Virus record (IMG/VR): IMGVR_UViG_3300032783_000063
Span: 1 to 64,000 of that record
Direction: 5' to 3' (one strand)
DNA length: 64,000 nt
Origin: a virus
The notes beneath the pieces are model-generated. The model had not been told where the DNA came from. It ran no database searches and saw nothing but the letters and a program-made list of their open reading frames with translations. Each line of letters starts with the position of its first letter. Position 1 is the first letter of the stretch. Shown here in pieces: positions 2,776-51,243 of this stretch. A program made the translations under genes and the position numbers.

Positions 2776-5760
2776 TCAGGCCACCTGCGATCCGTACCAG
2801 GCTGAGGTGGATGAGCCGAGGTTTTCGAACACGAGCACTGTCAGTGCCGCTGGGGATGTGGTGAGGTCGATGACGGGCACGGCGCCGGTGATCCAGGTGA
2901 CGTTCGTCCACGTCGGCTGGGTGCCGCCGGTGGCGGTGATGTAAAGGGTGATCGTAGTCGCGACCGCGCCGGTCGCCCCGCCGGCGAGGGTGATCGACGG
3001 GGAGCCGCTGTTGAGGTTCGCCGTGAACACGGTGCCCGGCGCCGATGCGGTGAGGGTGACCGACCCGGAGCCGAGGTTCCCGTGGGCCACGACGCTCTCA
3101 GCGCCGCCTGCCCCGCCAGGCGGCACCTGCCATTGCCCGTCGGCGCGCAGGAACTGGGTCGTCCCGCCCGGCGCCAGGCCGACCGAGGACGCCGCCGCCC
3201 TCGACGTGGCCCCCGTGAGCACGACCGGCGCCGCTGCCAGCCATGTCCCGGCGTAGGTGTTCAGGCCGACGTTGTTGCCGTTCGCCGCGGAGTCTTCCAG
3301 TACGGCCGTCGCGTAAGCGGTCACCGCAGTGAAGTAATTGTCTGTGACGGTGGATGCGGTGGCCCCGTTCAGGCGCACCGCGCTGGCCTGTCCGCCGGTC
3401 AGGCCCTGGCCGACGTTGAGGAACTGGCATCCGGACACCACATGGCCGGCGCCCTGCAGGACGAGCATGTCGGCGCTGTTGGTGCCGTCGAACTGGCAGC
3501 CGGTGAAAACAAGACGTCCCGGGGTGGAGTCGGATTTGACGAATGCCGCGCCGGTGGCGCCGCCGACGAAGTGGCAGCTGCTGTACGTGGACAGCCCGGC
3601 GCTGATGTCATACACCTGTCCGTTTTGCGGGGCGGAGGTGTTGCCGCAGTCCTGGATGGTACAGCCGGTGAACAGGTTCTCGTCGGCCTGCTCGACGCGC
3701 ATGGCGAGGCCGGTGCCGCCGTTGGCGTTCTTCCCGTTGCGGAACAGGCAGTTGCTGATGGTGTTGTGGTGTCCGTAGGAGCCGGTGCCGTCCTGGTAGA
3801 TGTGGATGCCCTCGCCCCACGGTTCCTCGATCCACAGGTGGTCGAAGACGCACCAGACGGCGCCGCGGGCGTAGATGCCTCCGCCTGCGGTGGTCTGGTT
3901 GGCGCCGTTGCAGTTGAGGTACAGGTCGCGGATAGTGAGTCCCGGCGTGTACACCGGGCCGGAGAGACCGAAGTCGAAAATGTAGGCGTTGGACCCGTTT
4001 GCCATGAAGATCTGGGAGTCCCAGCCGTCCCCGGCGATGGTGATCGCGCCGGGGGATCCGCCGCCGACGTTCAGCGCGGCGGAGATCTTGTAGGTTCCGG
4101 GGGGGAAGTAGACGGTCTGCCCGGTGGTTTTCGCGGCGGTGATGGCGTCCTGGATTACGGTGGTCGAGTCGGTGCCGCCGGTGGGGTCGGCGCCGTACTG
4201 GGCGGCGACGTTGATCAAGCCGGTGATGCTGGCGGTGGTCACGCCGCTGGTGTTGTCGTGGATGTTGTAGCTGGCCCGGGATGCTGCCGGGAAGTTCACT
4301 GGGTTCGCGGCGTTGGGGGTGACGGCGGTGAAGTCGTTCTCGGAAATGATGATCTCGCCGTCGCCGGTGCCGGGTACGGCGGCTGCGACACAGTACCGGC
4401 AGGTGCCGATGAACTGGTTCCCGGTGACGATGACGTTGTCGACGTTCTGGGTGATGACCAGCGCTGTGCTGCCGGCGATCGTGGCCGGAGCGGAAATCGT
4501 GTAACTGTAGGGCAGCACGGTTGAGTTGACGGCAGTAATGGTGGCACCAGCCGGGATGCCGGTCCCGGAAATCAGGCTGTTCAAATCGGTCTGCACGGCC
4601 AGCGGATCCAGGACTGTCGAGGCGCTGGCCCCGGACTGTGTCGTACCGCTGGGATCCGTCCTGGTCGTGCCGATGACGACGCTGTCGGTGGACGAGTTCT
4701 TCGTGCCGCCGATCTTGGCGCCGGACACGGTGATGTTCACGCCGTTTTTCATCAGGATCGAGCTGTCCTGCGCTGACCCGGACCCGCCGTATTCGCCGCC
4801 GACGATGTGCAAGGTGTCAAGCGCCGTGTTCCCGCCGAATGTCAGCCCGGCGCCGGCGTTCCAGCATTGCTCGAGGATGACGTTCCCGCCGCACCAGTCC
4901 AGGTTGATCCCGCCGTTGCCTTCCGGCGGGGGCCCGTTACCTGCCTCGAAGTTCGACCCCGAGTTGAAGAACGTGAGCCCCTTGTTGGGGTGGGTTTTGC
5001 CCAGGCTGTTGTGGGTGACGAGGGACAGTGGCCCGAAGAACGCGCAGGACACGAACGACGCGGACCCGGACAGGGAGTCCAGGTCGGCGCCGTAGGTGCC
5101 GCCGCCGAACTGGGACGCGACGGCGTGGACGGCGTTCTGTGTGTACATGCCGGCGTTCTCGCCGTGGAAAAACGACCCGAACATGGTGATCGTGTTCGAC
5201 CCGGTCGCGTAGAGGCCGTTCCAGACGTTGTTGGTCTGCACCCAGATGAAGTACATGTTGGCGCAGTCGGTCAGGTTCAGCGCCGCCCCGGCGGTTGTTG
5301 CCGGGGTCACCTCGGTGTCGAACCGCAGCGACTGGATGGTCAGGCCGCCGAGGCTGGACAGCTGGAAGATGTCGAAGTTCCCGGCGGCTTTGATGACGGA
5401 CCGGTAGCCGTCGCCGTAGAGGGTCAGCGCGGATCCGCCGGACACGACGACGGGCTGGCTGACGCGATACCACTGCGCGGTCGCCGGGAAGTAGACGGCG
5501 CCGTCTGCTGCGACGGCTGCGGTGCAGGCGGCGAGGATGGCGCCGTAGTCGTCGGTGCCGCCGTCGCCTGCTGCGTTGAATGGCGGGTCGGTGACGTTGA
5601 ACACTGTCGTGGTGGCGGAACTGCCGAGCAGGTTCGCAATGGTGATCTTCCGGGTGGATCCGGATGCGTCCATGGAGTGGTCGGAGATATCCACGATCGG
5701 GAGGACGTCGTTGGCTGCGATTCCGCTGGTCAGCGCCTGAAGCTCGGTTATCTTGCTCAA
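2776..5760 (-). CDS. Fibre/spike protein with two tandem pectate-lyase-like beta-helix domains
   Basis: Two N-cap motifs (FNVTDPPFNAAGDGGTDD..AI, INVAAQYGADPTGGTDSTTVIQDAI..VYFPPGTYKIS); N-terminal SKITEL..DVLPIVD module. Confidence 0.75.
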   Translation of the reverse strand: MSKITELQALTSGIAANDVLPIVDISDHSMDASGSTRKITIANLLGSSATTTVFNVTDPPFNAAGDGGTDDYGAILAACTAAVAADGAVYFPATAQWYRVSQPVVVSGGSALTLYGDGYRSVIKAAGNFDIFQLSSLGGLTIQSLRFDTEVTPATTAGAALNLTDCANMYFIWVQTNNVWNGLYATGSNTITMFGSFFHGENAGMYTQNAVHAVASQFGGGTYGADLDSLSGSASFVSCAFFGPLSLVTHNSLGKTHPNKGLTFFNSGSNFEAGNGPPPEGNGGINLDWCGGNVILEQCWNAGAGLTFGGNTALDTLHIVGGEYGGSGSAQDSSILMKNGVNITVSGAKIGGTKNSSTDSVVIGTTRTDPSGTTQSGASASTVLDPLAVQTDLNSLISGTGIPAGATITAVNSTVLPYSYTISAPATIAGSTALVITQNVDNVIVTGNQFIGTCRYCVAAAVPGTGDGEIIISENDFTAVTPNAANPVNFPAASRASYNIHDNTSGVTTASITGLINVAAQYGADPTGGTDSTTVIQDAITAAKTTGQTVYFPPGTYKISAALNVGGGSPGAITIAGDGWDSQIFMANGSNAYIFDFGLSGPVYTPGLTIRDLYLNCNGANQTTAGGGIYARGAVWCVFDHLWIEEPWGEGIHIYQDGTGSYGHHNTISNCLFRNGKNANGGTGLAMRVEQADENLFTGCTIQDCGNTSAPQNGQVYDISAGLSTYSSCHFVGGATGAAFVKSDSTPGRLVFTGCQFDGTNSADMLVLQGAGHVVSGCQFLNVGQGLTGGQASAVRLNGATASTVTDNYFTAVTAYATAVLEDSAANGNNVGLNTYAGTWLAAAPVVLTGATSRAAASSVGLAPGGTTQFLRADGQWQVPPGGAGGAESVVAHGNLGSGSVTLTASAPGTVFTANLNSGSPSITLAGGATGAVATTITLYITATGGTQPTWTNVTWITGAVPVIDLTTSPAALTVLVFENLGSSTSAWYGSQVA

Positions 5761-5862
5761 CGCGCCGCCCCTCCGTCTCAGAGCATTCCGGAGAGCCCGG
5801 TCGTCGCTGCGGTGGTGTATGACTGAGTGATCATCCGTTTTGCGCGCACCAGGCCCCGGCGT

Positions 5863-7659
5863 TTAATCGATTCCCCACCAGCCGAAGTTGTACGTGTTCG
5901 GTGAGAAGTTGGACAAGGTTAGCGGGGTTGTCAGGGTGGTGGCAGTTCCTGTGAGCAAAAGACTGCGGGCAGTGAAACCAGAACGCGCGAAACCGGTTCC
6001 CCCGACGGCCCCTTCGATATTGGTGAATACCGGTCCGACGACGGTGCCGCCCTGGGTTCCGACTACTAGGCCGACAGCCCACCAGCCGGCCGTCAGGGAT
6101 GTAACCCCTGTCGGGCCTGTGCGGATTATCGCATGGGAGGTGCTCGTTATATTCACCGGGCTGCCCTGCAATACAACGCCGTTGCTGCCGCCGGCTATGG
6201 TGTAAAGGCCGGTGTAGCAGTTCGAGTATCCGCTGGCTCCGCGCCAGTCACAGGTCACGTATCCATTGATGGTGATGGTGGTGGGTACGTAGAACAGGTT
6301 GAGTGCGATTCCGCCGCTCGGCCAGCCGCTAGCGGATACGGACTGGGAGAGGACCGGTTCCCAGTAGTCGAACGTCCAGGCGCCGTAGCCTTCGAGGACG
6401 GCGTTCTGATACATGGCGTAGTACTGGGCTGTAGCGTTTGTACTCGGGTGGATGTGTCCCGCGTCGGCGGCCTTGCCAGTCGACCCTGCGGATTGCGTCC
6501 CGGCGGGCGTGATATCTGTGGCGGTGCCGTCGAGTTGCAGGGCTCCTTGTGTGCTGGTGGTTCCCGCAGGGAGGTCGGCGGCCTGAATGGCGGCGAGAGT
6601 AGTGCTGGTCCCGTCGCTGCGGGCGTAATACCCGGCCTGCTGGCTGCCGGTCAGCGCAGTCAGCGCTGCTGTGGCAGACGTAGCGCCAGTGCCGCCGGAA
6701 TCCACGGCCAGCGGCAAGCTCGATGTGAGCACAATGCCAGTCGTCGGATGCACATGGCCTGCGTCGGCCAGTTTCCCCGTCGCCCCGGCGGCCTGCGTGC
6801 CGAGCGGGGCGATGTCCCCGGCGGTGGCATCGATGCTGGCGGTGGCGCCGCTGCTGAGTCCGAGCGCGGAGCGGGCGCCGTCTGCGGTCGTGGCGCCGGT
6901 GCCGCCGTTCCCTACCGCTACGGTCCCGGTCACATTCCCGGCCGTACCGGTGGTGTTCTGGTTCAGGTACCGGGCATCCAGTCCTGACAATGGCGCGTCT
7001 GTGGAGATGGCCAGCCAGATCCCGGCCTGGTACTGCAGGAAGATTCCCTGGTTCAGCAGGGTCAGCGCCACCGTGGTGCTTCCACCTGTTTTGTTGAACA
7101 CGTCTGGAAATGTCGTGTTCACCGTCACCCCGGCTGTGCCGAGGATCTGCTTCACGGCGGCGAGCGTTCCCGCTGGCGGCGTGGCGGGGAGGGTCACGAC
7201 GACCGGGCCGCCGGTCGTGTCTGCCGGAACGATCTGGTTTGCCGCCGCCTGGCATGGGCTGGTCAGGTTCGTCTGCACGGCAGCCTGGGTGAGGACAGGC
7301 CCTTTCGCGGCCTCGGCCGCCTCGGCGCGGGAGGTCTCGGCGTCGACGGACGCGACTGAGGCCCCCCCCAGGCTGGCGAGCGCATCGTCTGCTGTGGCTG
7401 CGCCGGTGCCCCCCTGAGCGACAGGCAGCGGCGCGGTCAGGTGCGTGGAGATGACCTGCGGCACCAGGTCGGTGTTTCCGAGGTCTCCGGCCAGAGTGAT
7501 CCCGCTGCTGCCGCCACCGGGAAGCAGGTCGGCGACGGTAATGCCTTTCGTGGTCCCGGATGCTGAGCCGTGGCTCGTGTCGGAGACGTCCACGATGGGC
7601 AGCACGTCATTGCTGGCGACTCCTGAGGTCAGCAGCGCAAGCTGCGTGATCTTGCTCAA
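5863..7659 (-). CDS. Fibre protein
   Basis: Repeated LPVAQGGTGATT / VAVGNGGTGATT fibre motifs and two DAGH(V/I)HP motifs; N-terminal SKITQL..DVLPIVD module; TTG start. Confidence 0.7.
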   Translation of the reverse strand: MSKITQLALLTSGVASNDVLPIVDVSDTSHGSASGTTKGITVADLLPGGGSSGITLAGDLGNTDLVPQVISTHLTAPLPVAQGGTGAATADDALASLGGASVASVDAETSRAEAAEAAKGPVLTQAAVQTNLTSPCQAAANQIVPADTTGGPVVVTLPATPPAGTLAAVKQILGTAGVTVNTTFPDVFNKTGGSTTVALTLLNQGIFLQYQAGIWLAISTDAPLSGLDARYLNQNTTGTAGNVTGTVAVGNGGTGATTADGARSALGLSSGATASIDATAGDIAPLGTQAAGATGKLADAGHVHPTTGIVLTSSLPLAVDSGGTGATSATAALTALTGSQQAGYYARSDGTSTTLAAIQAADLPAGTTSTQGALQLDGTATDITPAGTQSAGSTGKAADAGHIHPSTNATAQYYAMYQNAVLEGYGAWTFDYWEPVLSQSVSASGWPSGGIALNLFYVPTTITINGYVTCDWRGASGYSNCYTGLYTIAGGSNGVVLQGSPVNITSTSHAIIRTGPTGVTSLTAGWWAVGLVVGTQGGTVVGPVFTNIEGAVGGTGFARSGFTARSLLLTGTATTLTTPLTLSNFSPNTYNFGWWGID

Positions 7660-43780: not shown

Positions 43781-43918
43781 TTAGCCGTTGACGTCGCCGC
43801 CGCCAGTTTCGCCGGACGACGGGTGCTTGTGCGCCGGCCAGCAGCCGCTGACCGCCACCGGGACGCCGGCGAACATAATCGCAGCCAGCAGGATCGCAGC
43901 CGCCCGCCGTTTCTTCAT
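43781..43918 (-). CDS. Small putative lipopeptide
   Basis: MKKRRAAAILLAAIMFAGVPVAVSG-C lipobox-like. Confidence 0.5.
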   Translation of the reverse strand: MKKRRAAAILLAAIMFAGVPVAVSGCWPAHKHPSSGETGGGDVNG

Positions 43919-44156
43919 TCCACCGCCTACGGGATGATCGGGCCGGTTGTCATGGGCGTCGGCGCTGTCGGGTCGCCGTTCCGGCACACCGTGTCGCATC
44001 CCTTGCTAAGGGTTCGCAGGCCGGGCCCCCACGGGCTCCCGTATCTCCTGCGCTTCGATGACCGTTTGCGCCACGGCCTAAGGTCAAGGATAGTAAGGAA
44101 CACTATCACGCTCGACCACGCGAAGGCCCCGTGCTTATACTTGCCATGTCACACAC

Positions 44157-45407
44157 TCAAGCAGCACCATAGGTAATGAATCCACCTGGTGATGGTTTAT
44201 GTGAATCACACCATTTCCCGCCTGCGTATAGTCGTGGCGGCTGAGTGCAGTCAGGCACTATGCAACCTGTCACCTGCAGCACTGGCTCGGCGTTCTCCTG
44301 CCGCATGTTCTCGACCAGATTGAGATCGCAGATCCAGCAAAGCTGTCCAGGACCTGGACTGCGGTTACCGCGTCCCGTTTTGTGGTCGTGCGGGTTAGCC
44401 GTACGCCAGCGATCTAGTTCCGCCAGCGCCACGGGATCGGGTTCCCCAGGGCGCATGTCACACAGGCATGGGATGTGACCATGATAGCGACATCGGCCAG
44501 ACTTATACCGTTGGGTTCGTTTCGTCTGAAACGCGCTACCAGGCATCCATGTGCCTTGACCATCAGTCAGATGCTGGTAACGCTCAAAGCAAGACGAATG
44601 AACTAGGTAAGCGTGGCCGTCCCAACTGCGCAGCGGAACGATCTCGCCGGCTGGCACGCCGACGACGACATCATCGACAGACAATCCCAGGGCGGGCGTG
44701 AGGACTGGATGCTCGCGACCGCAGGGACGTCGACTGCCGTCTGGGCAGCGGGGCAGCAAGTTGTCGAAGGTCGCGCACTTGCGGGCTTCGACAACTCTGA
44801 GGCCGGTCGCTGTGACCGCGCGGCGTGGCGGTACACCTTCGCTGAAGATCCTCGGATTGTTGCAGCCCAAAGCTGGTACGGAGTCAAGCATCCGAGGCCG
44901 TGGGCCCCAGTCGTTGAACCACGCTGGAAGATACCCGGCAGCGTAGTACGTTTTAGTTCGATTGTTGATCTTTCTGGAATGTTGCTCGTATCGCTGGATT
45001 TCGATGTCCGTTGGCACGACGCATCCTGTGATCGCCACATCGAGAACGCCTCCGTCGACCACAACCTCCTGGCCAACGGTCATCCCGGCGTCTTGCGGCG
45101 GCCGAGCACAGTAGTCCTGCTCATTCTGATGTTCAGCGCTCTTCCTGCTGATCTCATGATCATCGTCGTGCCGGTCGTGGCCTTCCCCCGCGAAGTGCCG
45201 CGCAAAGTATTTCTCCGGTGCGCTGGATGTGGCTTGCCGTCGAACGACGTGCATCGCCCCGTCCCCACCATGCTCTAAGCAGAGCAGAACTCGATCATCG
45301 CGCTTGATCTCGTTGTGCAGACTGGTGATAACCCGGTAATCCGCGCCGGACAGCTTGCCGAGATCCAGGTCGCGATGTTCAGGGACATAATGTACACGGC
45401 CGGTCAT
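44157..45407 (-). CDS. CoiA-like PD-(D/E)XK nuclease with Cys-rich C-terminus
   Basis: LLC..H, RHF, S.EH, E..., LDV, IEIQ; visibly lower GC than flanks. Confidence 0.6.
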   Translation of the reverse strand: MTGRVHYVPEHRDLDLGKLSGADYRVITSLHNEIKRDDRVLLCLEHGGDGAMHVVRRQATSSAPEKYFARHFAGEGHDRHDDDHEISRKSAEHQNEQDYCARPPQDAGMTVGQEVVVDGGVLDVAITGCVVPTDIEIQRYEQHSRKINNRTKTYYAAGYLPAWFNDWGPRPRMLDSVPALGCNNPRIFSEGVPPRRAVTATGLRVVEARKCATFDNLLPRCPDGSRRPCGREHPVLTPALGLSVDDVVVGVPAGEIVPLRSWDGHAYLVHSSCFERYQHLTDGQGTWMPGSAFQTKRTQRYKSGRCRYHGHIPCLCDMRPGEPDPVALAELDRWRTANPHDHKTGRGNRSPGPGQLCWICDLNLVENMRQENAEPVLQVTGCIVPDCTQPPRLYAGGKWCDSHKPSPGGFITYGAA

Positions 45408-45663
45408 TGGACACCTTCACGAAGTCATGGATATGCATGACCTCAGGGTATACGGACCCTCGGACACTCTGATGTCACGGACGCGCGGCCCTTGACACGC
45501 AGTCCAGGGACAACGGGACATCGCGCCTGCCGTGGCCGTCGCTGGCGGAGGATGAGCTGGCGCGGTTCGCGGCGAAGCGGCTGTCCGAGGAGATGGCTGA
45601 ACGGCAGCGGCAGGGCCAGGCCGCCAGGGCCAGGGCTGTGGCCGGGGACTCTGGTGATGCGGC

Positions 45664-46011
45664 GTGAGAACCGACCTGCGTATCGCCTGCGACCGTTGCG
45701 GCATCGACGCCCCGGACATGCCCGACGTTCTGCGCTGGCTGATCAGCGATGAGGCCGGTGGCGGTGTCCCCGCTGTCTGCCCGGCTTGCCAGACCCTGGC
45801 TGAGAGGGGTCTTGTCGCAGCGGCTCACGAGGGGCTCCGGTGGATTCATGACAACGCTGGTGTAGGCGGTCCGGGGACGATGTTCCTGGATTACGTGTCC
45901 TGTGTCGGTGACCAGCTGGTTCGCCGTCGTCATCGCCGGGGTGACCATTCCCGGTGTTACGCGGACGACGGCTGCCGTTCTGCGGGGGCGCGTGTGTTAC
46001 CGCCGGGGTGA
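45664..46011 (+). CDS. Hypothetical zinc-finger protein
   Basis: CDRC...CPAC. Confidence 0.45.
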   Translation: MRTDLRIACDRCGIDAPDMPDVLRWLISDEAGGGVPAVCPACQTLAERGLVAAAHEGLRWIHDNAGVGGPGTMFLDYVSCVGDQLVRRRHRRGDHSRCYADDGCRSAGARVLPPG

Positions 46012-46217
46012 CCCCGGATATGCGGAACGGCCGGGGTTACCACGCCCGGCCGCCCGCCAAACCAGCCCGGCTCCCTCAACAGAGCCGTCCAACAGCACCG
46101 GATCCCCACCGTCAAGAGAGGCCCAGATATGGAAAGAGTACCGGAAGAGGCCGACAGAACCACTGCTCCCCGGCCGGCTGCGTCCCGGCTGCATCGCATC
46201 AGCAAAGGCCGGTGGGG

Positions 46218-46602
46218 GTCGCACCTCTCGCACCCGCTCCGCGCTGGCTCGGGTCAGAGGAGGCGTCGCACCTCTCCCGCCCGCGCCGCAGGGCCCTGGC
46301 CTCGGGCGCTGTGCTCGGCGCGGGGGGCGCGGGAGGACCCGGACCGACCACAATGTCCGCCGATGAGTCGCACCTCACGCGGCACCAACTGCCCGGCCCC
46401 AGTGCAAACCAGTGTCACACCTCCCCGACCGCGAGGCCCGGCAGAGGGCCTACAGCAGCACGCATGGCCACCGCCACCCGGACCACACAGCGCTGCTGGC
46501 GCCAGCTCGAACAGGCCGGCTGGCTGTCACCGGCCCTCCGGCTCCATCCCGCCCTGAGACTTCGCGGCCGCTGAGGAGCCTCATGCCCTCATGTCGCCCC
46601 TC
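46218..46602 (-). repeat. Five copies of a 10-nt motif at and after the tnpB 3' end (GAGGTGCGAC on minus strand)
   Basis: Plus-strand GTCGCACCTC at 46218, 46265, 46367; GTCACACCTC at 46414; GTCGCCCCTC at 46593. Confidence 0.8.
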
Positions 46603-48137
46603 TGAGCGGTCAGGCAGCCTTGCGTACGGGCCCGCCGTCTGCGGCGGTGCTTACGTGTGCGCGGCGGCCCCAGGCCCCAGGCAGACGGCACCAGCGCGCC
46701 AGACGGCTCCGCGGCGCTCGGGAGTCGCGCGGCCTCTATGGAGTTAGGAGAGTTCACGGGCTGCTCCCTGACGGGTTGGCATATCTCCCGTGCTGCCACC
46801 GTTTGCGCCACGGCGGTAAAGCGATCCTTAATGTTACCTGCTGCGATTATGTCGGCGTGCCCTGACAATCCGCATCCGACACATTGGAACACGGCCCGGC
46901 TCGGCCGGTTCGCTGCGTCGACCAGCCCGCAACCGGGACACGTCTGCGACGTGTGCGGGGCCGGGACTTTCACCAGGGTCGTCTTGTAGGCAACGAACTG
47001 CTGGAGCTGATACCAGTTCCCGGCGAGGATCTCTCGGTTCAGCCCCGTCTTCTGTTTCACGTTCCGGCCCGGGGCGTCTTCGGTGCCTTTCGCTGATGCG
47101 GTCATGGCGGACACGTCCAGGTTCTCCATCACCACGGTCGCGTATCTGGCCGCCAGCGCCCTGGAGGCCAGGTGAGCGCCTGCGGTGCGCTGCCTGGTCT
47201 CATGCTGCATCAGCTTCAGGTGCGCCATCTTGTCCCGCAGATACCTGCGCGAATGCTTCCAGCAATCACAATCGTGACCATCAGCGCCTGGCGGGGGGCA
47301 GTAGCCACGGAGCAGATGCGCGCGCCCATTCCGCTGGGTCCAGGTGTCGTGCCGACACGGGTTCAGCCGCCGTTTGCGGGCCATCGCAACCTGCAGCCGC
47401 CGTTTCCGCTCCTGCTGACCAGCAGACAAGCCAGGTGCGTCGTATGTTTCGCCATCCGACGTCATCGCCGTCACCGTCACGCCACGATCCACGCCCACCA
47501 CCCCGGACGTCGCAGGCTGCCGCACCTCTGCAGTGTCATATTGGACAGTCGCCCAGTACCGGCCTGTGTCATCCACTCGCAGCGACGCGAACCCCACCAG
47601 CGTGTCCTCGGGCAGCACCCGGTGATAGCGGATCTTCACCAGGCCGATCGCACCGGGCACCTTCAACATGGCCCGGCCAGGACGGCCCGGCCGGATAACA
47701 CCCGGCAGCGGACACCGCACCGAGCCCTCCTGCGTCTGCCAGTACAACGACCCGCCCTTATGAACCGACCGGAACCGAGGCGGACTGGACGGCTTGCCTT
47801 CCTTCAGCATCGTGAAATGCCGCGTCCACGACGCCGACAACTGCCGCAGGGCACCATGCAGCATCACCGACGGCACTATGGTGAATGGGTGGGTCTGGCC
47901 GTGATGCCGAAACTCGCACCCCGCCTTGCGTGCTACCGACACCGCATAGCTGAGGCTCATGCACGACTCGACCCCGGCGTGATGCTTCCACCGGTCCAGC
48001 TGCGACGCCACAGCCTCATTGAAGAACGCCGTCACCCCGGCGCGCTGCAAGGCGAATGTCTCAGCCTGGGCGGGCGATAACTCGGCGGCGTACACCTGGG
48101 CGCGCTTGTAACGCACCGGGACAACTAGCTGAGACAT
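46581..48137 (-). CDS. tnpB: TnpB RNA-guided endonuclease (IS200/IS605 family), no adjacent TnpA
   Basis: PPRFR, VGVDRG (RuvC-I), VMENL (RuvC-II), TSQTCPGCG..FQCVGCG zinc ribbon, HAD..AA.NI (RuvC-III). Confidence 0.92.
   Translation of the reverse strand: MSQLVVPVRYKRAQVYAAELSPAQAETFALQRAGVTAFFNEAVASQLDRWKHHAGVESCMSLSYAVSVARKAGCEFRHHGQTHPFTIVPSVMLHGALRQLSASWTRHFTMLKEGKPSSPPRFRSVHKGGSLYWQTQEGSVRCPLPGVIRPGRPGRAMLKVPGAIGLVKIRYHRVLPEDTLVGFASLRVDDTGRYWATVQYDTAEVRQPATSGVVGVDRGVTVTAMTSDGETYDAPGLSAGQQERKRRLQVAMARKRRLNPCRHDTWTQRNGRAHLLRGYCPPPGADGHDCDCWKHSRRYLRDKMAHLKLMQHETRQRTAGAHLASRALAARYATVVMENLDVSAMTASAKGTEDAPGRNVKQKTGLNREILAGNWYQLQQFVAYKTTLVKVPAPHTSQTCPGCGLVDAANRPSRAVFQCVGCGLSGHADIIAAGNIKDRFTAVAQTVAAREICQPVREQPVNSPNSIEAARLPSAAEPSGALVPSAWGLGPPRTRKHRRRRRARTQGCLTAQRGDMRA
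46593..46820 (-). ncRNA. Putative omega-RNA scaffold overlapping the tnpB 3' end
   Basis: Begins just after the RuvC-III codons; hairpins such as ACCGCCGTGGCGCAAACGGTGG; protein tail is low-complexity, as expected for an overlapped RNA; boundaries inferred. Confidence 0.5.
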
Positions 48138-48357
48138 GCTGTAACCGTACTGCTGGAGTCCGACAGTGCAGGGTCACTGCCGGGCCAACCTGCCCGCCCG
48201 GCAGAGTGGGCGAAGTGACCTGGCGCGAAGATGGCCACTACCTGCCGCTGCCAGGGCACCCAGGAGGGATTGCACCATCATCCAGGACATGCTCAGTGCT
48301 TAGGAACACTGTGCGGCCTGACTTGCCAGTGACATTCCGCTACGTCGACACACGACA

Positions 48358-48392
48358 AGGGCGCCACGCTCCCGAGGGAACACGGCGCCCTG
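48358..48392 (-). terminator. Hairpin downstream of the UTRA gene
   Basis: AGGGCGCC...GGCGCCCT inverted repeat. Confidence 0.5.
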
Positions 48393-48407
48393 TCCTACAC
48401 CCCGCGG

Positions 48408-48962
48408 CTACCCGTCGATCGTGAACTCGTAGTCCAGCACCCACTGGGAGGCCGCCACAACATGCACGCACACCTCAACCGCCCGGCCTTCAGCAGTCCA
48501 GCCCACGTGGAAGATCTCCGTCACGAACTGGTCAGGGTCCAAGCCGAGCGCGGTCGCCTCGGCCTCGGTGGGCCGCCGTGACCTCACCGCCTCGGTGATC
48601 CTGGTCTGCGCGTAGCCGAGCTCAGCAAACCGCGACACGATCCCGCCCGGCCCCGAGTCCTGGTCGACGAGCCGGGTGCCGTCTGCGATGTCAGTCGGGA
48701 TAAACGATGTGGCGAGCTGGACCGTGACCCCGTCCGCGGCCATGCGGCGACGACGGGCCACCACCGGCACGCCCTCGTGAATGCCCAGCACGCGGGCGAC
48801 GTCTGCCGACGCGGGAACGCGGCTGACCTCGACTTCTGAGTGCGGTTCGAGGCCGAGGCTGCGGATCTCGGCGTCGAACGCGCCACGGCCGCCGTTGCGT
48901 TCGCGCGCCTGGCGGTTGTAGCGGGTTACTGCGTTGCGGTGGATGACTGGGATCGTGCGCAC
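48408..48962 (-). CDS. UTRA-domain protein lacking an HTH
   Basis: VARRR...VQLATSF, GPGG...ELG, E.V.SR.PT..EA..L, GRAVE. Confidence 0.8.
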   Translation of the reverse strand: MRTIPVIHRNAVTRYNRQARERNGGRGAFDAEIRSLGLEPHSEVEVSRVPASADVARVLGIHEGVPVVARRRRMAADGVTVQLATSFIPTDIADGTRLVDQDSGPGGIVSRFAELGYAQTRITEAVRSRRPTEAEATALGLDPDQFVTEIFHVGWTAEGRAVEVCVHVVAASQWVLDYEFTIDG

Positions 48963-49031
48963 TGTGCTCCCTTTTCTTGTCGTGCGGTTATGTTGCGCTG
49001 CCATTGAGCGGTAGCGCGTCGTAGACGAGAG

Positions 49032-49781
49032 CTACCCGACAGGCTCCGGGTCCACCGCGTAGTCGTAACTGACTACCTGGTCAGGGGGCAGCACGTGCTC
49101 ACCGTAGATCAGCACACCAGCATCGTCGGACCATACGTTCGTCGTGGCCAGGATCGGGGTGCCGATCGGAATACGCAGCGCACCCGCCTCTCGCGCATCT
49201 GCCGCCCGGCCGCGGAGATGATCCCGGCCGTGCGTGACACGCCGCCCCGTCACCGACTCAACCACACGAACAGTGCCGTCCGCCAGCGGCTCCGGTGATG
49301 TGAGCTCAGCTGCGAGCGGGCTGGAGCCGATCGGCGGCACCCAGTCCACCGACAGCATCTGCGGCCGGGCCCTCTTGTAAGTGACCTCTTCACGTCGGTT
49401 GACCACCGTGCCGATCGGGATGCCCAGCAGTTCAGCCACATAGTTGGGTGCGGTGACCGTCTCTGCGGCGTTGACGATGATCCGTTCGCCGTTGGTGGTG
49501 GAGCGGCGCGGCCCGCCGCCTGTAATACGGTCACGGGCAGACTTGGTGATGATCTCCTTGTCGGCGACAAAAGACCCTTGGGGACTGGTCCAGATGGCGC
49601 CTTCTACCTGAAGCTGGCTGATGGCCCGGGCGGCCGTGGCTACTGAGATGCCCCAGTCGGTGGCGATCTGGCTGATGGGCGGGAGCTTCTGCCCGGGAAC
49701 AAGGTCACCATCGAGGATCGCGGTGCGGTAGTGATCCGCCACCTGTACGTAAACAGGTAGTGGCCGGTCGGCGCGTGGCAT
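49032..49781 (-). CDS. GntR/HutC-family repressor (HTH + UTRA), Kor-like
   Basis: YVQVADHYR..I.DG.L.PG.KLP, G.S..T...A...L; UTRA C-terminus; AGGAGG RBS. Confidence 0.9.
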   Translation of the reverse strand: MPRADRPLPVYVQVADHYRTAILDGDLVPGQKLPPISQIATDWGISVATAARAISQLQVEGAIWTSPQGSFVADKEIITKSARDRITGGGPRRSTTNGERIIVNAAETVTAPNYVAELLGIPIGTVVNRREEVTYKRARPQMLSVDWVPPIGSSPLAAELTSPEPLADGTVRVVESVTGRRVTHGRDHLRGRAADAREAGALRIPIGTPILATTNVWSDDAGVLIYGEHVLPPDQVVSYDYAVDPEPVG

Positions 49782-49849
49782 TAAGGTCCGCCTCCTGAGG
49801 TGGGGGTCCTTTGGCAGCGTACTCATAGATCTACTGCCCAACCGTATTC

Positions 49850-49900
49850 TAGTACACGAGTGCTTGTGCTGTGTACGGTGCAGGCGTATGCTGTATACAG
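49850..49900 (+). promoter_or_regulatory. Rightward promoter with palindromic operator candidates
   Basis: TTGTGC(49864)-N17-TATGCT(49887); palindrome CTGTATACAG 49891-49900; GTACAC...GTGTAC inverted pair. Confidence 0.55.
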
Positions 49901-49935
49901 ACAGCAACGGAACGCAACCGAAGGGAGCACGCAGC

Positions 49936-51243
49936 ATGAGCGCCCCCACCATCACCAGCGCACACCCCCCGCTCACCGTGGAGCAGGCCGACATACTCAC
50001 CGAGGCCATCGCCGACGCCATCACATTCCGGCAGCCCCACCACGACTGCCCGGCCTGCATGTGGGAGCCCATCCCGTGGGCCTGTGTCGAGCATTTCGCC
50101 GACGAGGCCCGCGCCGAGGCATACATCTCCCTCGCCGCCGAGCTCGGCCTGGAAGCACCGGAGGTCTAGATGCCTGACGAACTAGCAGTCACGCCGATCG
50201 TTACCGGCAGCCCCGTCAAGTCGATCGCATATCTCGTCGGCTACGGCGAATACGACGACCAGGTAATCCTGTGTGTCTGCGTGGACGCGCGTGACGCCGC
50301 AATGCAGGCCGACGAGTGGAACCGCACCGGCCGCGAACGGATGCATGACAAAGCGTGGATCGAGACGGTGGACTTCATCCCCGCAGGCGGCTCCTGATGT
50401 CTGACTGCGACCTGAACACTGAAAGCCCTCACATCGCCATGTCGGCGCCCGCCCGGTATGGCAAGAGCCCCGGCAAGTTCCTGCGGCTGGTCCCCCCCGA
50501 CGGCGACTATTACGCGAACGTCCTGGACGAGGAACTCGTGCAGACCGTCACAGCCCTGTGCGCTGAATGCGCCCACTGTCACCAGCCGGTCCGCCGCGAG
50601 CACGGCGGCGTCTGGTGCCACGTGTTCGCGTTCGACATGTTCATGTGCCCCGGCGTGCCAGAACCGGAGGCAGCGTCATGATCTGGGTGATGGGCGGGTC
50701 GATGGCCCTGTTCCTGGTTGTGATCGTCGGTTTCGGCGTGGCTGTGGTGGCCGAGCTTCTCGGCGGCGGCCGCCGGGCTGATAGGCCGCGGCTGCGGGAC
50801 GCGGATGTGGCCCTGGCCGTGGACGCAGCCCGGCAGGCCGCCTACGCCCAGGGCCAGGCAGACCAGGCCAGCCAGACGTTCGACGCCTACATCGCCGCCG
50901 GTCTTGACGACGTGGAGGCGTTCGCGAACGGCGAGCGGAGGCAGCCATGACCGCCTGGGCTGTCCTCGGCGCCATGTTCGTATTCCTGTGCCTCGTCTTC
51001 GCCGCCGGCGAATGGGCGTTCGACATCGTCGGTGTGCGCCGCCGGTATTACGCGTGGCGGCTGGACCGGTGGGAGGCATCCCGGCAGGCCGCCTACGACC
51101 GGGCCGTCGCCGACCAGGAAGAAGAGGAACGCTACGTCCGCGCCGCCGCGGCCGCCGTGCAGGACGAAGCCTGGGACGACATGGTGGCCAAGGGCCTCGA
51201 CCTCCTCGAGGCGTGCGCCAATAACGAGAGGACGGACTGGTGA
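49936..51243 (+). other. Run of five small coupled hypothetical genes (49936-50169, 50170-50397, 50397-50681, 50678-50950, 50947-51243); last two have N-terminal TM helices
   Basis: Abutting or overlapping start/stop codons. Confidence 0.6.

What the first reader, a model, noticed from the sequence alone, without database searches (positions are those of the whole stretch)
46200..48137. Solo TnpB followed by a repeated 10-nt motif: candidate multi-guide proto-CRISPR array
Seen: TnpB with all three RuvC acidic residues and no TnpA. In the transcribed direction, GAGG(T/G)G(C/T)GAC occurs five times: once at the end of the ORF (46593) and four times downstream (46414, 46367, 46265, 46218), with spacings 179, 47, 102 and 47 nt. 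Most copies are preceded by a hairpin and each is followed by different sequence. Known: omega-RNAs overlap the tnpB 3' end and finish with a hairpin plus a short conserved motif directly before the guide; Cas12 arrays are thought to derive from duplication of this 3' module. Inference: a phage-domesticated TnpB with several guides. Caveats: only 10 nt are conserved, spacing is irregular, and in the last unit the putative guide pairs with the next repeat.
Basis: partly seen in the sequence, partly recalled or inferred. Interest (0 to 1): 0.8.

Follow-up and report, generated by a model that had tools for sequence, protein, structure and literature searches.

The report
Phage TnpB-like nuclease, eroded guide array
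A phage carries a non-mobile TnpB-like RNA-guided nuclease. The repeated 10-base motif after it is the guide-adjacent end of its guide RNA, relatives carry full CRISPR-type arrays built on the same motif, and here only an irregular mini-array plus a separate compact guide-RNA gene remain.

Summary
GAGGKGYGAC occurs five times, on one strand only, at the end of and just after a 518-aa TnpB-like gene. It occurs nowhere else in the complete 101-kb phage genome.

The motif is the scaffold/guide junction of the nuclease's guide RNA:
- Two relatives (a 210-kb phage and a Streptosporangiaceae MAG contig) carry real arrays of about 21 and 7 repeats of 36-37 nt. These arrays start at the ORF stop, and their repeats end in the same motif.
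- One spacer in the MAG array matches another contig of that MAG at 36/38.
- Canonical actinobacterial TnpB omega-RNAs share the same covarying stems and end in the homologous GGAGGATGTCAA.
- A second, stand-alone compact guide-RNA gene lies at 43993-44083 and ends in GGGATGCGAC.

The protein clade is closest to Cas12n (V-U4) and has a disordered tail that encodes the RNA scaffold. No transposase or Cas1 is present in the genome.

This is a multi-copy guide-handle locus of a domesticated TnpB. However, the tree places it among array-bearing lineages, so it is more likely a derived, eroded or minimised array than a nascent one. No targets and no RNA data were found, so whether units A-D are used as guides is unproven.

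The parts
46581..48137 (-). 518-aa TnpB-like (Cas12n-like) effector gene with an intact RuvC triad, a CCCC zinc ribbon, and a disordered C-terminal tail from about residue 446
   Evidence: Family matches: Pfam, NCBIfam and PADLOC. Invariant D217/E338/D429 and C400/C403/C419/C422. AlphaFold model with pLDDT 78 and tail below 50. Best fold matches are ISDra2 and ISFba1 TnpB and Cas12f. Core dN/dS is 0.19 against L007.
46745..46821 (-). 5' part of the guide-RNA scaffold (stems A and B), embedded in the ORF tail
   Evidence: RNAalifold finds compensatory pairs. Covariance model R1 scores 99.5 bits here. In 58 distinct sequences, 97% of cells are paired against 78% in shuffles, and 16 of 19 pairs covary. 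Synonymous third-position identity is 0.84 here against about 0.5 elsewhere in the ORF.
46593..46602 (-). R1: motif copy GAGGGGCGAC at the ORF end. It is the positional homologue of the first repeat of the arrays in L003 and L084.
   Evidence: Alignment A2. The GAG of the motif pairs with CUC after stem B, and this pair is compensated in L084 (CGC/GCG).
46414..46423 (-). Unit A: GAGGTGTGAC
46367..46376 (-). Unit B: GAGGTGCGAC, 47 nt after A (37 nt between the motifs)
46265..46274 (-). Unit C: GAGGTGCGAC (12-mer GAGAGGTGCGAC shared with D)
46218..46227 (-). Unit D: GAGGTGCGAC, 47 nt after C
45949..46580 (-). About 630-nt G+C-rich stretch without codon periodicity. It holds units A-D and lies between the effector gene and the next gene on the same strand.
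   Evidence: Frame-specific GC profile. No consensus terminator or promoter is predicted.
46131..46196 (-). Weak stem-A-like hairpin (loop GACGCAG) just after unit D. It may be a vestige of another scaffold copy.
   Evidence: R1 scores 14.3 bits, E 0.002 in a 900-nt search and 0.35 in 161 kb. This is weak.
43993..44083 (-). Stand-alone compact guide-RNA gene: stems A and B, a short stem C (CCCUU/AAGGG), then GGGATGCGAC
   Evidence: R1 scores 53 bits, E 2e-10. Sequence. Counterparts in L007/L004 and L006 have covarying stems and the same junction motif. The first trace was a 72% DNA match.
43955..43992 (-). Sequence directly after the stand-alone scaffold, a putative guide. It is unrelated to the sequences at the same place in L007 and L006.

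Best explanation
The gene encodes a non-mobile, phage-borne member of a rare clade of long (500-590 aa) TnpB-derived nucleases. The clade is closest to Cas12n (type V-U4/V-N).

Guide RNA. The guide RNA is of the omega-RNA type. Its scaffold begins inside the disordered-tail coding region, and its last 10 nt (GAGGTGCGAC) sit directly before the guide.

Relatives. In relatives, the last 36-37 nt of this RNA have been multiplied into a CRISPR-type array that starts at the ORF stop and targets other mobile elements.

This phage's subclade. The array is reduced to an irregular set: R1 in cis with the scaffold, plus four downstream copies of only the 10-nt guide-adjacent handle, each followed by unique sequence. 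The locus has also gained a separate compact guide-RNA gene 2.5 kb downstream.

Inferred mechanism. Read-through transcription of the gene's 3' region yields the scaffold and the handle-plus-guide units. The nuclease binds the scaffold, and the guide following a handle directs RuvC cleavage of matching DNA, most likely in competing mobile elements or phages.

Shown: the identity of the motif as the scaffold/guide junction; the homologous arrays; the RNA structure; the absence of a transposase; and purifying selection on the protein.

Inferred: transcription; use of units A-D as guides; and the targets.
For: (1) The motif is unique to this spot and strand in the genome.

(2) L003 (complete 210-kb phage, protein 60-62% identical) has about 21 repeats of 36 nt ending in GAGGTGCGAC, with spacers mostly 30-42 nt and the first repeat overlapping the stop codon. 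L084 (protein 52-55% identical) has 7 repeats of 37 nt ending in GCGATGCGAC.

(3) L084 spacer 4 matches G001:C240 at 36/38, inside a DUF2637/excisionase-like gene.

(4) The scaffold stems covary, and synonymous change is suppressed there. Tail dS is 0.68 against 1.22 in the core.

(5) The same scaffold model hits 54 canonical actinobacterial TnpB loci at their ORF ends. Their RNAs end in GGAGGATGTCAA followed by divergent flanks.

(6) Stand-alone compact RNAs in the window, L007/L004 and L006 end in (G/A)TGCGAC followed by unrelated sequence, and stem C is fully compensated between the window and L006.

(7) The four 10-mers differ at 1 of 40 positions while their 27-nt upstream flanks are random-like. 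This argues for selection on the handle itself.

(8) The 37 nt between motifs in pairs A-B and C-D equals the usual spacer length of the relatives.

(9) In RdCas12n, most of the repeat:anti-repeat stem 5 (-39 to -12) is disordered and could be modified or truncated, while -4 to -2 form the pseudoknot (PMC12216341). A roughly 10-nt handle is therefore plausible.

(10) The nearest accessible relative, L007 (68% identical), also has an irregular cluster of short copies: 7 GCGAC in 420 nt, P 7.5e-5.

(11) The protein is under purifying selection (dN/dS 0.19) and the catalytic triad is intact.
Against: - Units A-D share nothing beyond 10-12 nt, and spacing is irregular.
- The conserved internal element CGCTCGCACC(C/G)CAGGTCAGGAG is the best pairing partner of the motif in L003 and L084. 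It is missing from the window and L007.
- No partner for the motif of 7 bp or more is enriched in the locus.
- No unit folds better than its shuffles, nor does the whole region.
- No target was found for any putative guide: in the phage's own genome and about 230 loci, in 50,697 phage records, in IMG/VR for two guides as exact 20-mers, or in 401 genomes of the order of G001, where only G+C-rich background matches appeared.
- There is no expression evidence.
- The stand-alone RNA could make the downstream units redundant.
Confidence: 0.55

Rival explanations
1. Dead relic. The four downstream copies are leftovers of a once regular array and no longer work. The nuclease uses only the guide after R1 and/or the stand-alone compact guide RNA at 43993-44083.
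For: - The regular-array state is found on both sides of the subclade in the tree.
- The putative anti-repeat element and the repeat's 5' block are lost.
- Spacing is irregular and there are no significant hairpins.
- A complete alternative guide-RNA gene exists.
- L003 itself shows eroded repeats and shortened spacers at the far end of its array.
Against: Neutral decay should not leave 39 of 40 motif positions intact while the adjoining 27 nt are randomised. The same kind of short-motif cluster is kept in L007 at 68% protein identity. The two motif pairs keep exactly 37 nt between them.
Confidence: 0.3
2. DNA-level sites. The 10-mers are binding sites for a phage or host protein and regulate the downstream operon. 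The neighbouring GntR/UTRA regulators at 48408-50126 are one candidate.
For: The copies are clustered and same-oriented in a roughly 630-nt non-coding stretch upstream of the next gene. Two GntR/UTRA genes lie just upstream of the nuclease gene.
Against: - The motif is the 3' end of CRISPR-type repeats in two homologous loci and of stand-alone guide RNAs in three.
- One position covaries with the RNA scaffold.
- The motif is not palindromic, unlike typical GntR/HutC operators (general knowledge).
- It is absent from all other intergenic regions of the genome.
Confidence: 0.05
3. Transposon-end repeats. The copies are subterminal transposase-binding repeats of an IS607- or IS605-type element that once carried this tnpB.
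For: The protein belongs to the TnpB family, and related canonical elements exist in Actinomycetota. IS607-type ends are known to contain short repeats (general knowledge, not tested here).
Against: No Y1 or serine transposase is present in either complete phage genome. The gene is single-copy. The canonical relatives show a single GGAGGATGTCAA end, not clusters. The motif is the repeat end of spacer-bearing arrays.
Confidence: 0.03

Closest known systems
Cas12n (type V-N, formerly V-U4), e.g. RdCas12n, PDB 9J09
   Same: - Best match among solved structures by sequence (profile E 1e-28; single sequence E 3e-16).
- Best PADLOC model is Cas12u4 at 145 bits.
- Similar size of about 520-590 aa and actinobacterial setting.
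- Disordered C-terminal tail whose coding DNA also encodes the tracr/scaffold RNA (PMC12216341).
- Relatives have 36-37-nt-repeat arrays downstream and no adaptation genes.
   Different: - The sequence match is confined to the RuvC/TNB half and is barely better than the Cas12f models (145 against 136 bits).
- The clade has its own Cys/His-rich insertion.
- The single protospacer found has a G+C-rich 5' flank (...CCCCGC), not the 5'-AAN PAM reported for Cas12n (n=1).
- The window itself has no regular array.
TranC (transposon-CRISPR intermediates) and the V-U6 to V-U45 branches of TnpB-derived Cas12
   Same: These are TnpB-like proteins nested among TnpBs. They carry CRISPR arrays downstream, where the omega-RNA normally lies, and lack cas1/cas2. 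Some are phage-borne. The underlying idea is that the omega-RNA splits into tracrRNA and crRNA (PMC13565253; bioRxiv 10.64898/2026.03.27.714800; PMC10691335).
   Different: I could not establish whether this clade is one of the named TranC or V-U branches. The original TranC paper and the PNAS supplement were not available. The window's 10-nt micro-repeats and its extra stand-alone guide-RNA gene are not features described in the texts I could read.
Canonical IS-borne TnpB with its omega-RNA in Actinomycetota (about 400 aa, with the PF12323 HTH)
   Same: Same fold. Same two 5' scaffold stems at the ORF 3' end. Homologous guide-adjacent end: GGAGGATGTCAA against GAGGTGCGAC.
   Different: Only 35-40% identity over about 57% of the protein. 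These elements have one omega-RNA and one guide each, and are multi-copy and mobile. The window's protein lacks the N-terminal HTH domain hit, is about 120 aa longer, is single-copy, and has no transposase.
Omega-RNA arrays and minimised arrays described for inactivated TnpBs (the sigma-factor-associated TnpB clade)
   Same: These show irregular, divergent arrays in which the sharp scaffold/guide boundary is kept. They also illustrate a path in which an array is minimised and the guide RNA re-fused (PMC10691335).
   Different: Those proteins are nuclease-dead regulators with repeats longer than 60 bp. Here the nuclease triad is intact and the repeated unit is only 10-12 nt.

Membership tests
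TnpB / OMEGA family | RuvC-like D-E-D triad split by a zinc-ribbon (TNB) domain, and a TnpB fold | tested here: met
   PF07282 at E 4e-14. NF040570 at 137 bits against a cut-off of 100. D217/E338/D429 and four Cys are invariant. Foldseek top hits are 8H1J and 8IAZ TnpB, E 1e-18 to 3e-17.
TnpB / OMEGA family | Guide RNA scaffold overlapping the 3' end of the gene and ending at a sharp boundary before a variable guide | tested here: met
   Covarying stems in the ORF tail. Suppressed synonymous change. Junction motif followed by unrelated sequences in five loci.
TnpB / OMEGA family | Residence in an IS200/IS605 or IS607 element (TnpA partner or several copies) | tested here: not met
   Single copy in a complete genome. 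No PF01797 or PF00239 hit in G000 or G002.
Type V CRISPR-Cas (Cas12 with array) | Array of regular direct repeats with unique spacers next to the effector gene | tested here: not met
   Met in the relatives L003 (about 21 repeats of 36 nt) and L084 (7 repeats of 37 nt). In the window only 10-12 nt recur, at spacings of 179, 47, 102 and 47 nt.
Type V CRISPR-Cas (Cas12 with array) | Spacers that match mobile elements | tested here: inconclusive
   One L084 spacer matches a DUF2637/excisionase-like gene on another contig of the same MAG at 36/38. Nothing was found for the window's putative guides.
Type V CRISPR-Cas (Cas12 with array) | Adaptation genes cas1/cas2 (absent from many small type V subtypes) | tested here: not met
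   No PF01867 hit in G000 or G002, while the control genomes were positive.
Cas12n (V-N / V-U4) | Sequence membership in the Cas12n family | tested here: inconclusive
   Cas12u4 is the best PADLOC model (145 bits) but is close to Cas12f (136 bits). RdCas12n is the best PDB sequence hit, covering residues 295-465 only.
Cas12n (V-N / V-U4) | Disordered C-terminal tail whose DNA encodes the tracrRNA | tested here: met
   pLDDT below 50 for residues 446-475 and 491-518. The scaffold model hit lies in the tail. Tail dN/dS is 0.77 with lowered dS. The feature is as described in PMC12216341.
Cas12n (V-N / V-U4) | A-rich 5'-AAN PAM | tested here: inconclusive
   The only protospacer found (for L084) has the 5' flank CTCGCCCCGC. 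This is a single case, in a relative, with two mismatches.
TranC (transposon-CRISPR intermediate) | Use of both a CRISPR RNA with tracrRNA and a contiguous omega/reRNA | not testable with these tools
   The architecture is compatible: R1 is in cis with the scaffold, there are further repeats or handles, and there is a contiguous stand-alone RNA. Activity needs experiments.

The most novel reading that the evidence does not exclude
A natural 'micro-repeat' guide array. In this subclade a 10-nt handle alone may be enough to mark a guide for a TnpB-like nuclease whose scaffold RNA is supplied separately, from the ORF tail or the stand-alone gene. Units A-D would then be working crRNAs with the shortest repeat known. 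The locus would also show that a CRISPR-type array can be streamlined back towards an omega-RNA-like state, with a delocalised guide-RNA gene.
Probability: 0.25. Interest if true: 0.8.

Novelty: new variant of a known kind. Interest (0 to 1): 0.62.

Why it matters
TnpB-to-Cas12 transitions are known in outline from Cas12n, TranC and the V-U branches. This clade lays several states side by side in close relatives:
- a canonical omega-RNA end;
- the same end multiplied into 36-37-nt-repeat arrays on a jumbo phage and a plasmid-like contig;
- a state where only the 10-nt guide-adjacent handle recurs, together with a separate, very compact (about 90 nt) guide-RNA gene.

If the short handles work, this sets a natural lower limit for a crRNA handle and gives a compact nuclease/guide design. 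If they do not work, the locus documents how such arrays decay and are replaced. Either way it gives a directly testable system for how guide modules are gained and lost on phages.

Tried and rejected
The loci of the closest homologues, including P0002 at 81% identity, could not be fetched.

Searches that found nothing:
- Rfam gave no hit in 45000-49000.
- Megablast of the locus against phage records gave nothing.
- An IMG/VR scan with the single protein found nothing. With the clade profile it found only L003.
- The metagenome and genome scans were dominated by generic TnpBs. They gave only L004-L007 and L084 from the clade.
- The clade was not found in 400 further genomes of the order of G001. 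The unpublished genomes G003 and G012 were among those searched, and only these negative or background statements rest on them.

IMG/VR pattern scans:
- For the repeat's 3' end and for two motif copies 37-67 nt apart, only L003's record appeared, plus unrelated coding repeats and one unrelated type I/III-like array.

Spacer and guide target searches, all negative except L084 spacer 4. A 19-nt exact match of the unit C-D interval to a Nonomuraea GTPase gene was judged to be chance, because the sequence is G+C-rich and the match does not abut a motif.

Searches for an anti-repeat:
- Whole-ORF duplex scans were uninformative in this G+C-rich DNA.
- A 7-bp partner scan of the window gave 10 hits against 11.5 expected.

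Other negative tests:
- Folding of the 711-nt region gave z = 0.1.
- A 75-nt or 149-nt periodicity of the units was considered. No sequence similarity supports it.
- No consensus promoter or terminator was predicted.
Full report
WHAT IS THERE

The window is the first 64 kb of a complete 101,305-bp phage record with direct terminal repeats, about 67% G+C.

The ORF 46581-48137 on the minus strand encodes a 518-aa TnpB-family protein. It matches Pfam PF07282 and NCBIfam guided_TnpB above its cut-off.

The pattern GAGGKGYGAC matches five times, all on the gene's strand. One copy overlaps the last codons of the ORF (R1, 46593-46602). Four lie downstream: A at 46414, B at 46367, C at 46265 and D at 46218. 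The expectation for the window is 1.3, and no shuffle reaches 5. These are the only copies in the whole genome.

The roughly 630 nt between the stop codon and the next gene on the same strand show no codon periodicity.

Outside 10-12 nt the units are as different as random sequence. None folds better than its shuffles.

THE PROTEIN AND ITS CLADE

A database search found about 50 proteins of 41-81% identity, all from metagenomes. After these, identity drops sharply to ordinary TnpBs of about 400 aa at 35-40%.

In an alignment of 20 members, the RuvC triad (D217, E338, D429), the CCCC zinc ribbon and a Cys/His-rich insertion are invariant.

The AlphaFold model (pLDDT 78) has a TnpB/Cas12f fold and a disordered tail from residue 446.

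The best solved relative by sequence is RdCas12n (9J09). The best PADLOC model is Cas12u4, only slightly ahead of Cas12f.

The core is under purifying selection: dN/dS is 0.19 against L007.

Neither this phage nor the phage of L003 encodes a Y1 or serine transposase or Cas1. The gene is single-copy. The clade was found in only one of 401 genomes of the order of G001 and in one other IMG/VR record.

RELATIVES CARRY REAL ARRAYS BUILT ON THE SAME MOTIF

In L003 (a complete 210-kb phage, protein P0022), the ORF is followed directly by about 21 copies of a 36-nt repeat that ends in GAGGTGCGAC. Spacers are mostly 30-42 nt. The first repeat overlaps the stop codon, and the most distant copies are degenerate.

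In L084 (an 81-kb contig of a Streptosporangiaceae MAG, with a ParA-like gene next to it), seven 37-nt repeats end in GCGATGCGAC.

The two repeats share three blocks: CTGRCAACGG, GCCTGAGC and TGCGAC. Most clade proteins end in ...PGNG, which is the translation of the first block.

Spacer 4 of L084 matches another contig of the same MAG at 36 of 38 positions, inside a DUF2637/excisionase-like gene. I take that gene to be of a kind typical of actinobacterial integrative or conjugative elements, which is my own reading and not a tool result.

These are therefore working CRISPR-type arrays of a TnpB-derived effector without adaptation genes. This architecture has been described for Cas12n, for the V-U branches and for TranC.

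THE MOTIF IS THE SCAFFOLD/GUIDE JUNCTION OF AN OMEGA-TYPE RNA

I aligned the ORF 3' ends of the window, L007, L003 and L084. This gives two stems with compensatory changes, and a CUC/GAG pair between the scaffold and the motif that is compensated in L084.

Synonymous third positions are 84% identical across these stems, against about 50% elsewhere in the ORF. In the tail, dS is lowered while dN/dS rises.

A covariance model of the two stems also finds 54 canonical actinobacterial TnpB loci, at the equivalent place. On 58 distinct sequences, 97% of cells pair (shuffles 78%; slid controls 32-43%) and 16 of 19 pairs covary. That alignment is fitted to the model, which is a caveat.

In the canonical loci the RNA ends with a G+C hairpin and GGAGGATGTCAA, after which the sequences diverge. 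GAGGTGCGAC is the clade's version of this end.

AN UNEXPECTED SECOND GUIDE-RNA GENE

The same model hits window 44005-44083 (53 bits, E 2e-10). There the two stems are followed by a short third stem and GGGATGCGAC (ending at 43993) and then by unique sequence.

Counterparts lie just upstream of, and divergent from, the effector gene in L007/L004. In L006 one lies about 1 kb upstream. In L006 the third stem is fully compensated (CCCUU/AAGGG against CUCGC/GCGAG), and the sequences after the motif are unrelated in all three.

These are compact (about 90 nt) contiguous guide RNAs. TANNNT-type -10 candidates lie 8-10 nt upstream in the window and L007; this is my reading of the sequence and is weak. 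No such copy was found within the 40 kb searched around the L003 effector or the 20 kb around the L084 effector.

WHAT THE WINDOW'S MINI-ARRAY IS

The window and L007 form a subclade with P0002. This subclade lacks two things the rest of the clade keeps:
- a conserved internal element (the 'GERSHPGQ'-coding segment, CGCTCGCACC(C/G)CAGGTCAGGAG), which is the best pairing partner of the motif in L003 and L084;
- the repeat's 5' block.

Array-bearing lineages sit both deeper (L084, 72% identical to P0030) and beside it (L003 = P0022) in the tree. That tree is the quick one and was rooted with ordinary TnpBs. The irregular state is therefore most simply derived from a regular array, not a nascent one.

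Three observations argue that the handle itself is still under selection:
- The four 10-mers differ at one position in forty while their flanks are randomised.
- The two motif pairs keep exactly 37 nt between them, which is the family's usual spacer length.
- L007 also keeps an irregular cluster of short copies: 7 GCGAC in 420 nt, P 7.5e-5.

Work on RdCas12n shows that most of the repeat:anti-repeat stem is disordered and could be modified or truncated, and that the nucleotides next to the guide form the pseudoknot (PMC12216341). A roughly 10-nt handle is thus mechanistically conceivable.

Against function:
- No anti-repeat is detectable in the window.
- There is no structure signal.
- No targets were found.
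- There are no RNA data.

VERDICT

The locus is a domesticated, phage-borne TnpB/Cas12n-like nuclease. The repeated motif is the guide-adjacent handle of its RNA, and relatives show the full array form. The window's version is most likely an eroded or minimised array. Whether units A-D still deliver guides is open: I put it at roughly even odds, with 'dead relic' as the main rival.

It is a new variant of a known kind. I could not decide whether the clade equals a named V-U or TranC branch.

Noticed in passing
window 47250-47390 (residues ~250-296 of the nuclease): A Cys/His-rich insertion between RuvC-I and RuvC-II. C261, C280, C292, W293 and K294 are invariant, and C290 and H295 nearly invariant, in 20 clade members. 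It looks like a second metal-binding module specific to this clade.
   Followed up: partly
window 48408-49004 and 49032-50126 (minus strand): Two HutC-type regulator genes lie directly upstream of the nuclease gene, one with UTRA only and one with GntR HTH plus UTRA. Both hit phrog_10724. The sequence ACTGGTTTGCACTGG right after unit A loosely resembles a DasR/HutC-type operator.
   Followed up: no
window 44157-45407 (minus strand): A 416-aa ORF with no Pfam or PHROG match ends about 75 nt before the stand-alone guide-RNA gene. Its function is unknown.
   Followed up: partly
window 43781-43915 (minus strand): A small ORF with a lipoprotein-type signal peptide (…VAVSGC) lies just after the putative guide of the stand-alone RNA.
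   Followed up: no
L007:4970-6859: A second, different large TnpB-family gene (HTH_OrfB_IS605 + OrfB_IS605 + TNB) lies about 430 nt downstream of the clade gene, so two RNA-guided nuclease genes sit in tandem.
   Followed up: partly
L249:1033-1070 (G001:C240:12632-12669): Protospacer of L084 spacer 4 (36/38) near the 3' end of a DUF2637/excisionase-like gene. Its 5' flank is CTCGCCCCGC.
   Followed up: partly
L232 (IMGVR_UViG_2585427655_000001), minus strand ~4260-4560: An unrelated A+T-rich viral contig has a CRISPR array whose roughly 32-nt repeat also ends in GAGGTGCGAC. Read on the other strand it ends in ...GATTGAAAT, typical of type I/III repeats, so the shared 10-mer is probably a coincidence.
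   Followed up: partly
window 46229-46247 vs L096:1894-1912: A 19-nt exact match between the unit C-D interval and a GTPase (Der/EngA-like) gene of a Nonomuraea genome. It is G+C-rich and does not abut a motif, so it is probably chance.
   Followed up: partly
L003:5350-5400 and 5840-5900: The regular array of L003 contains shortened spacers (10, 15 and 19 nt) and degenerate distal repeats, which shows erosion in progress.
   Followed up: partly
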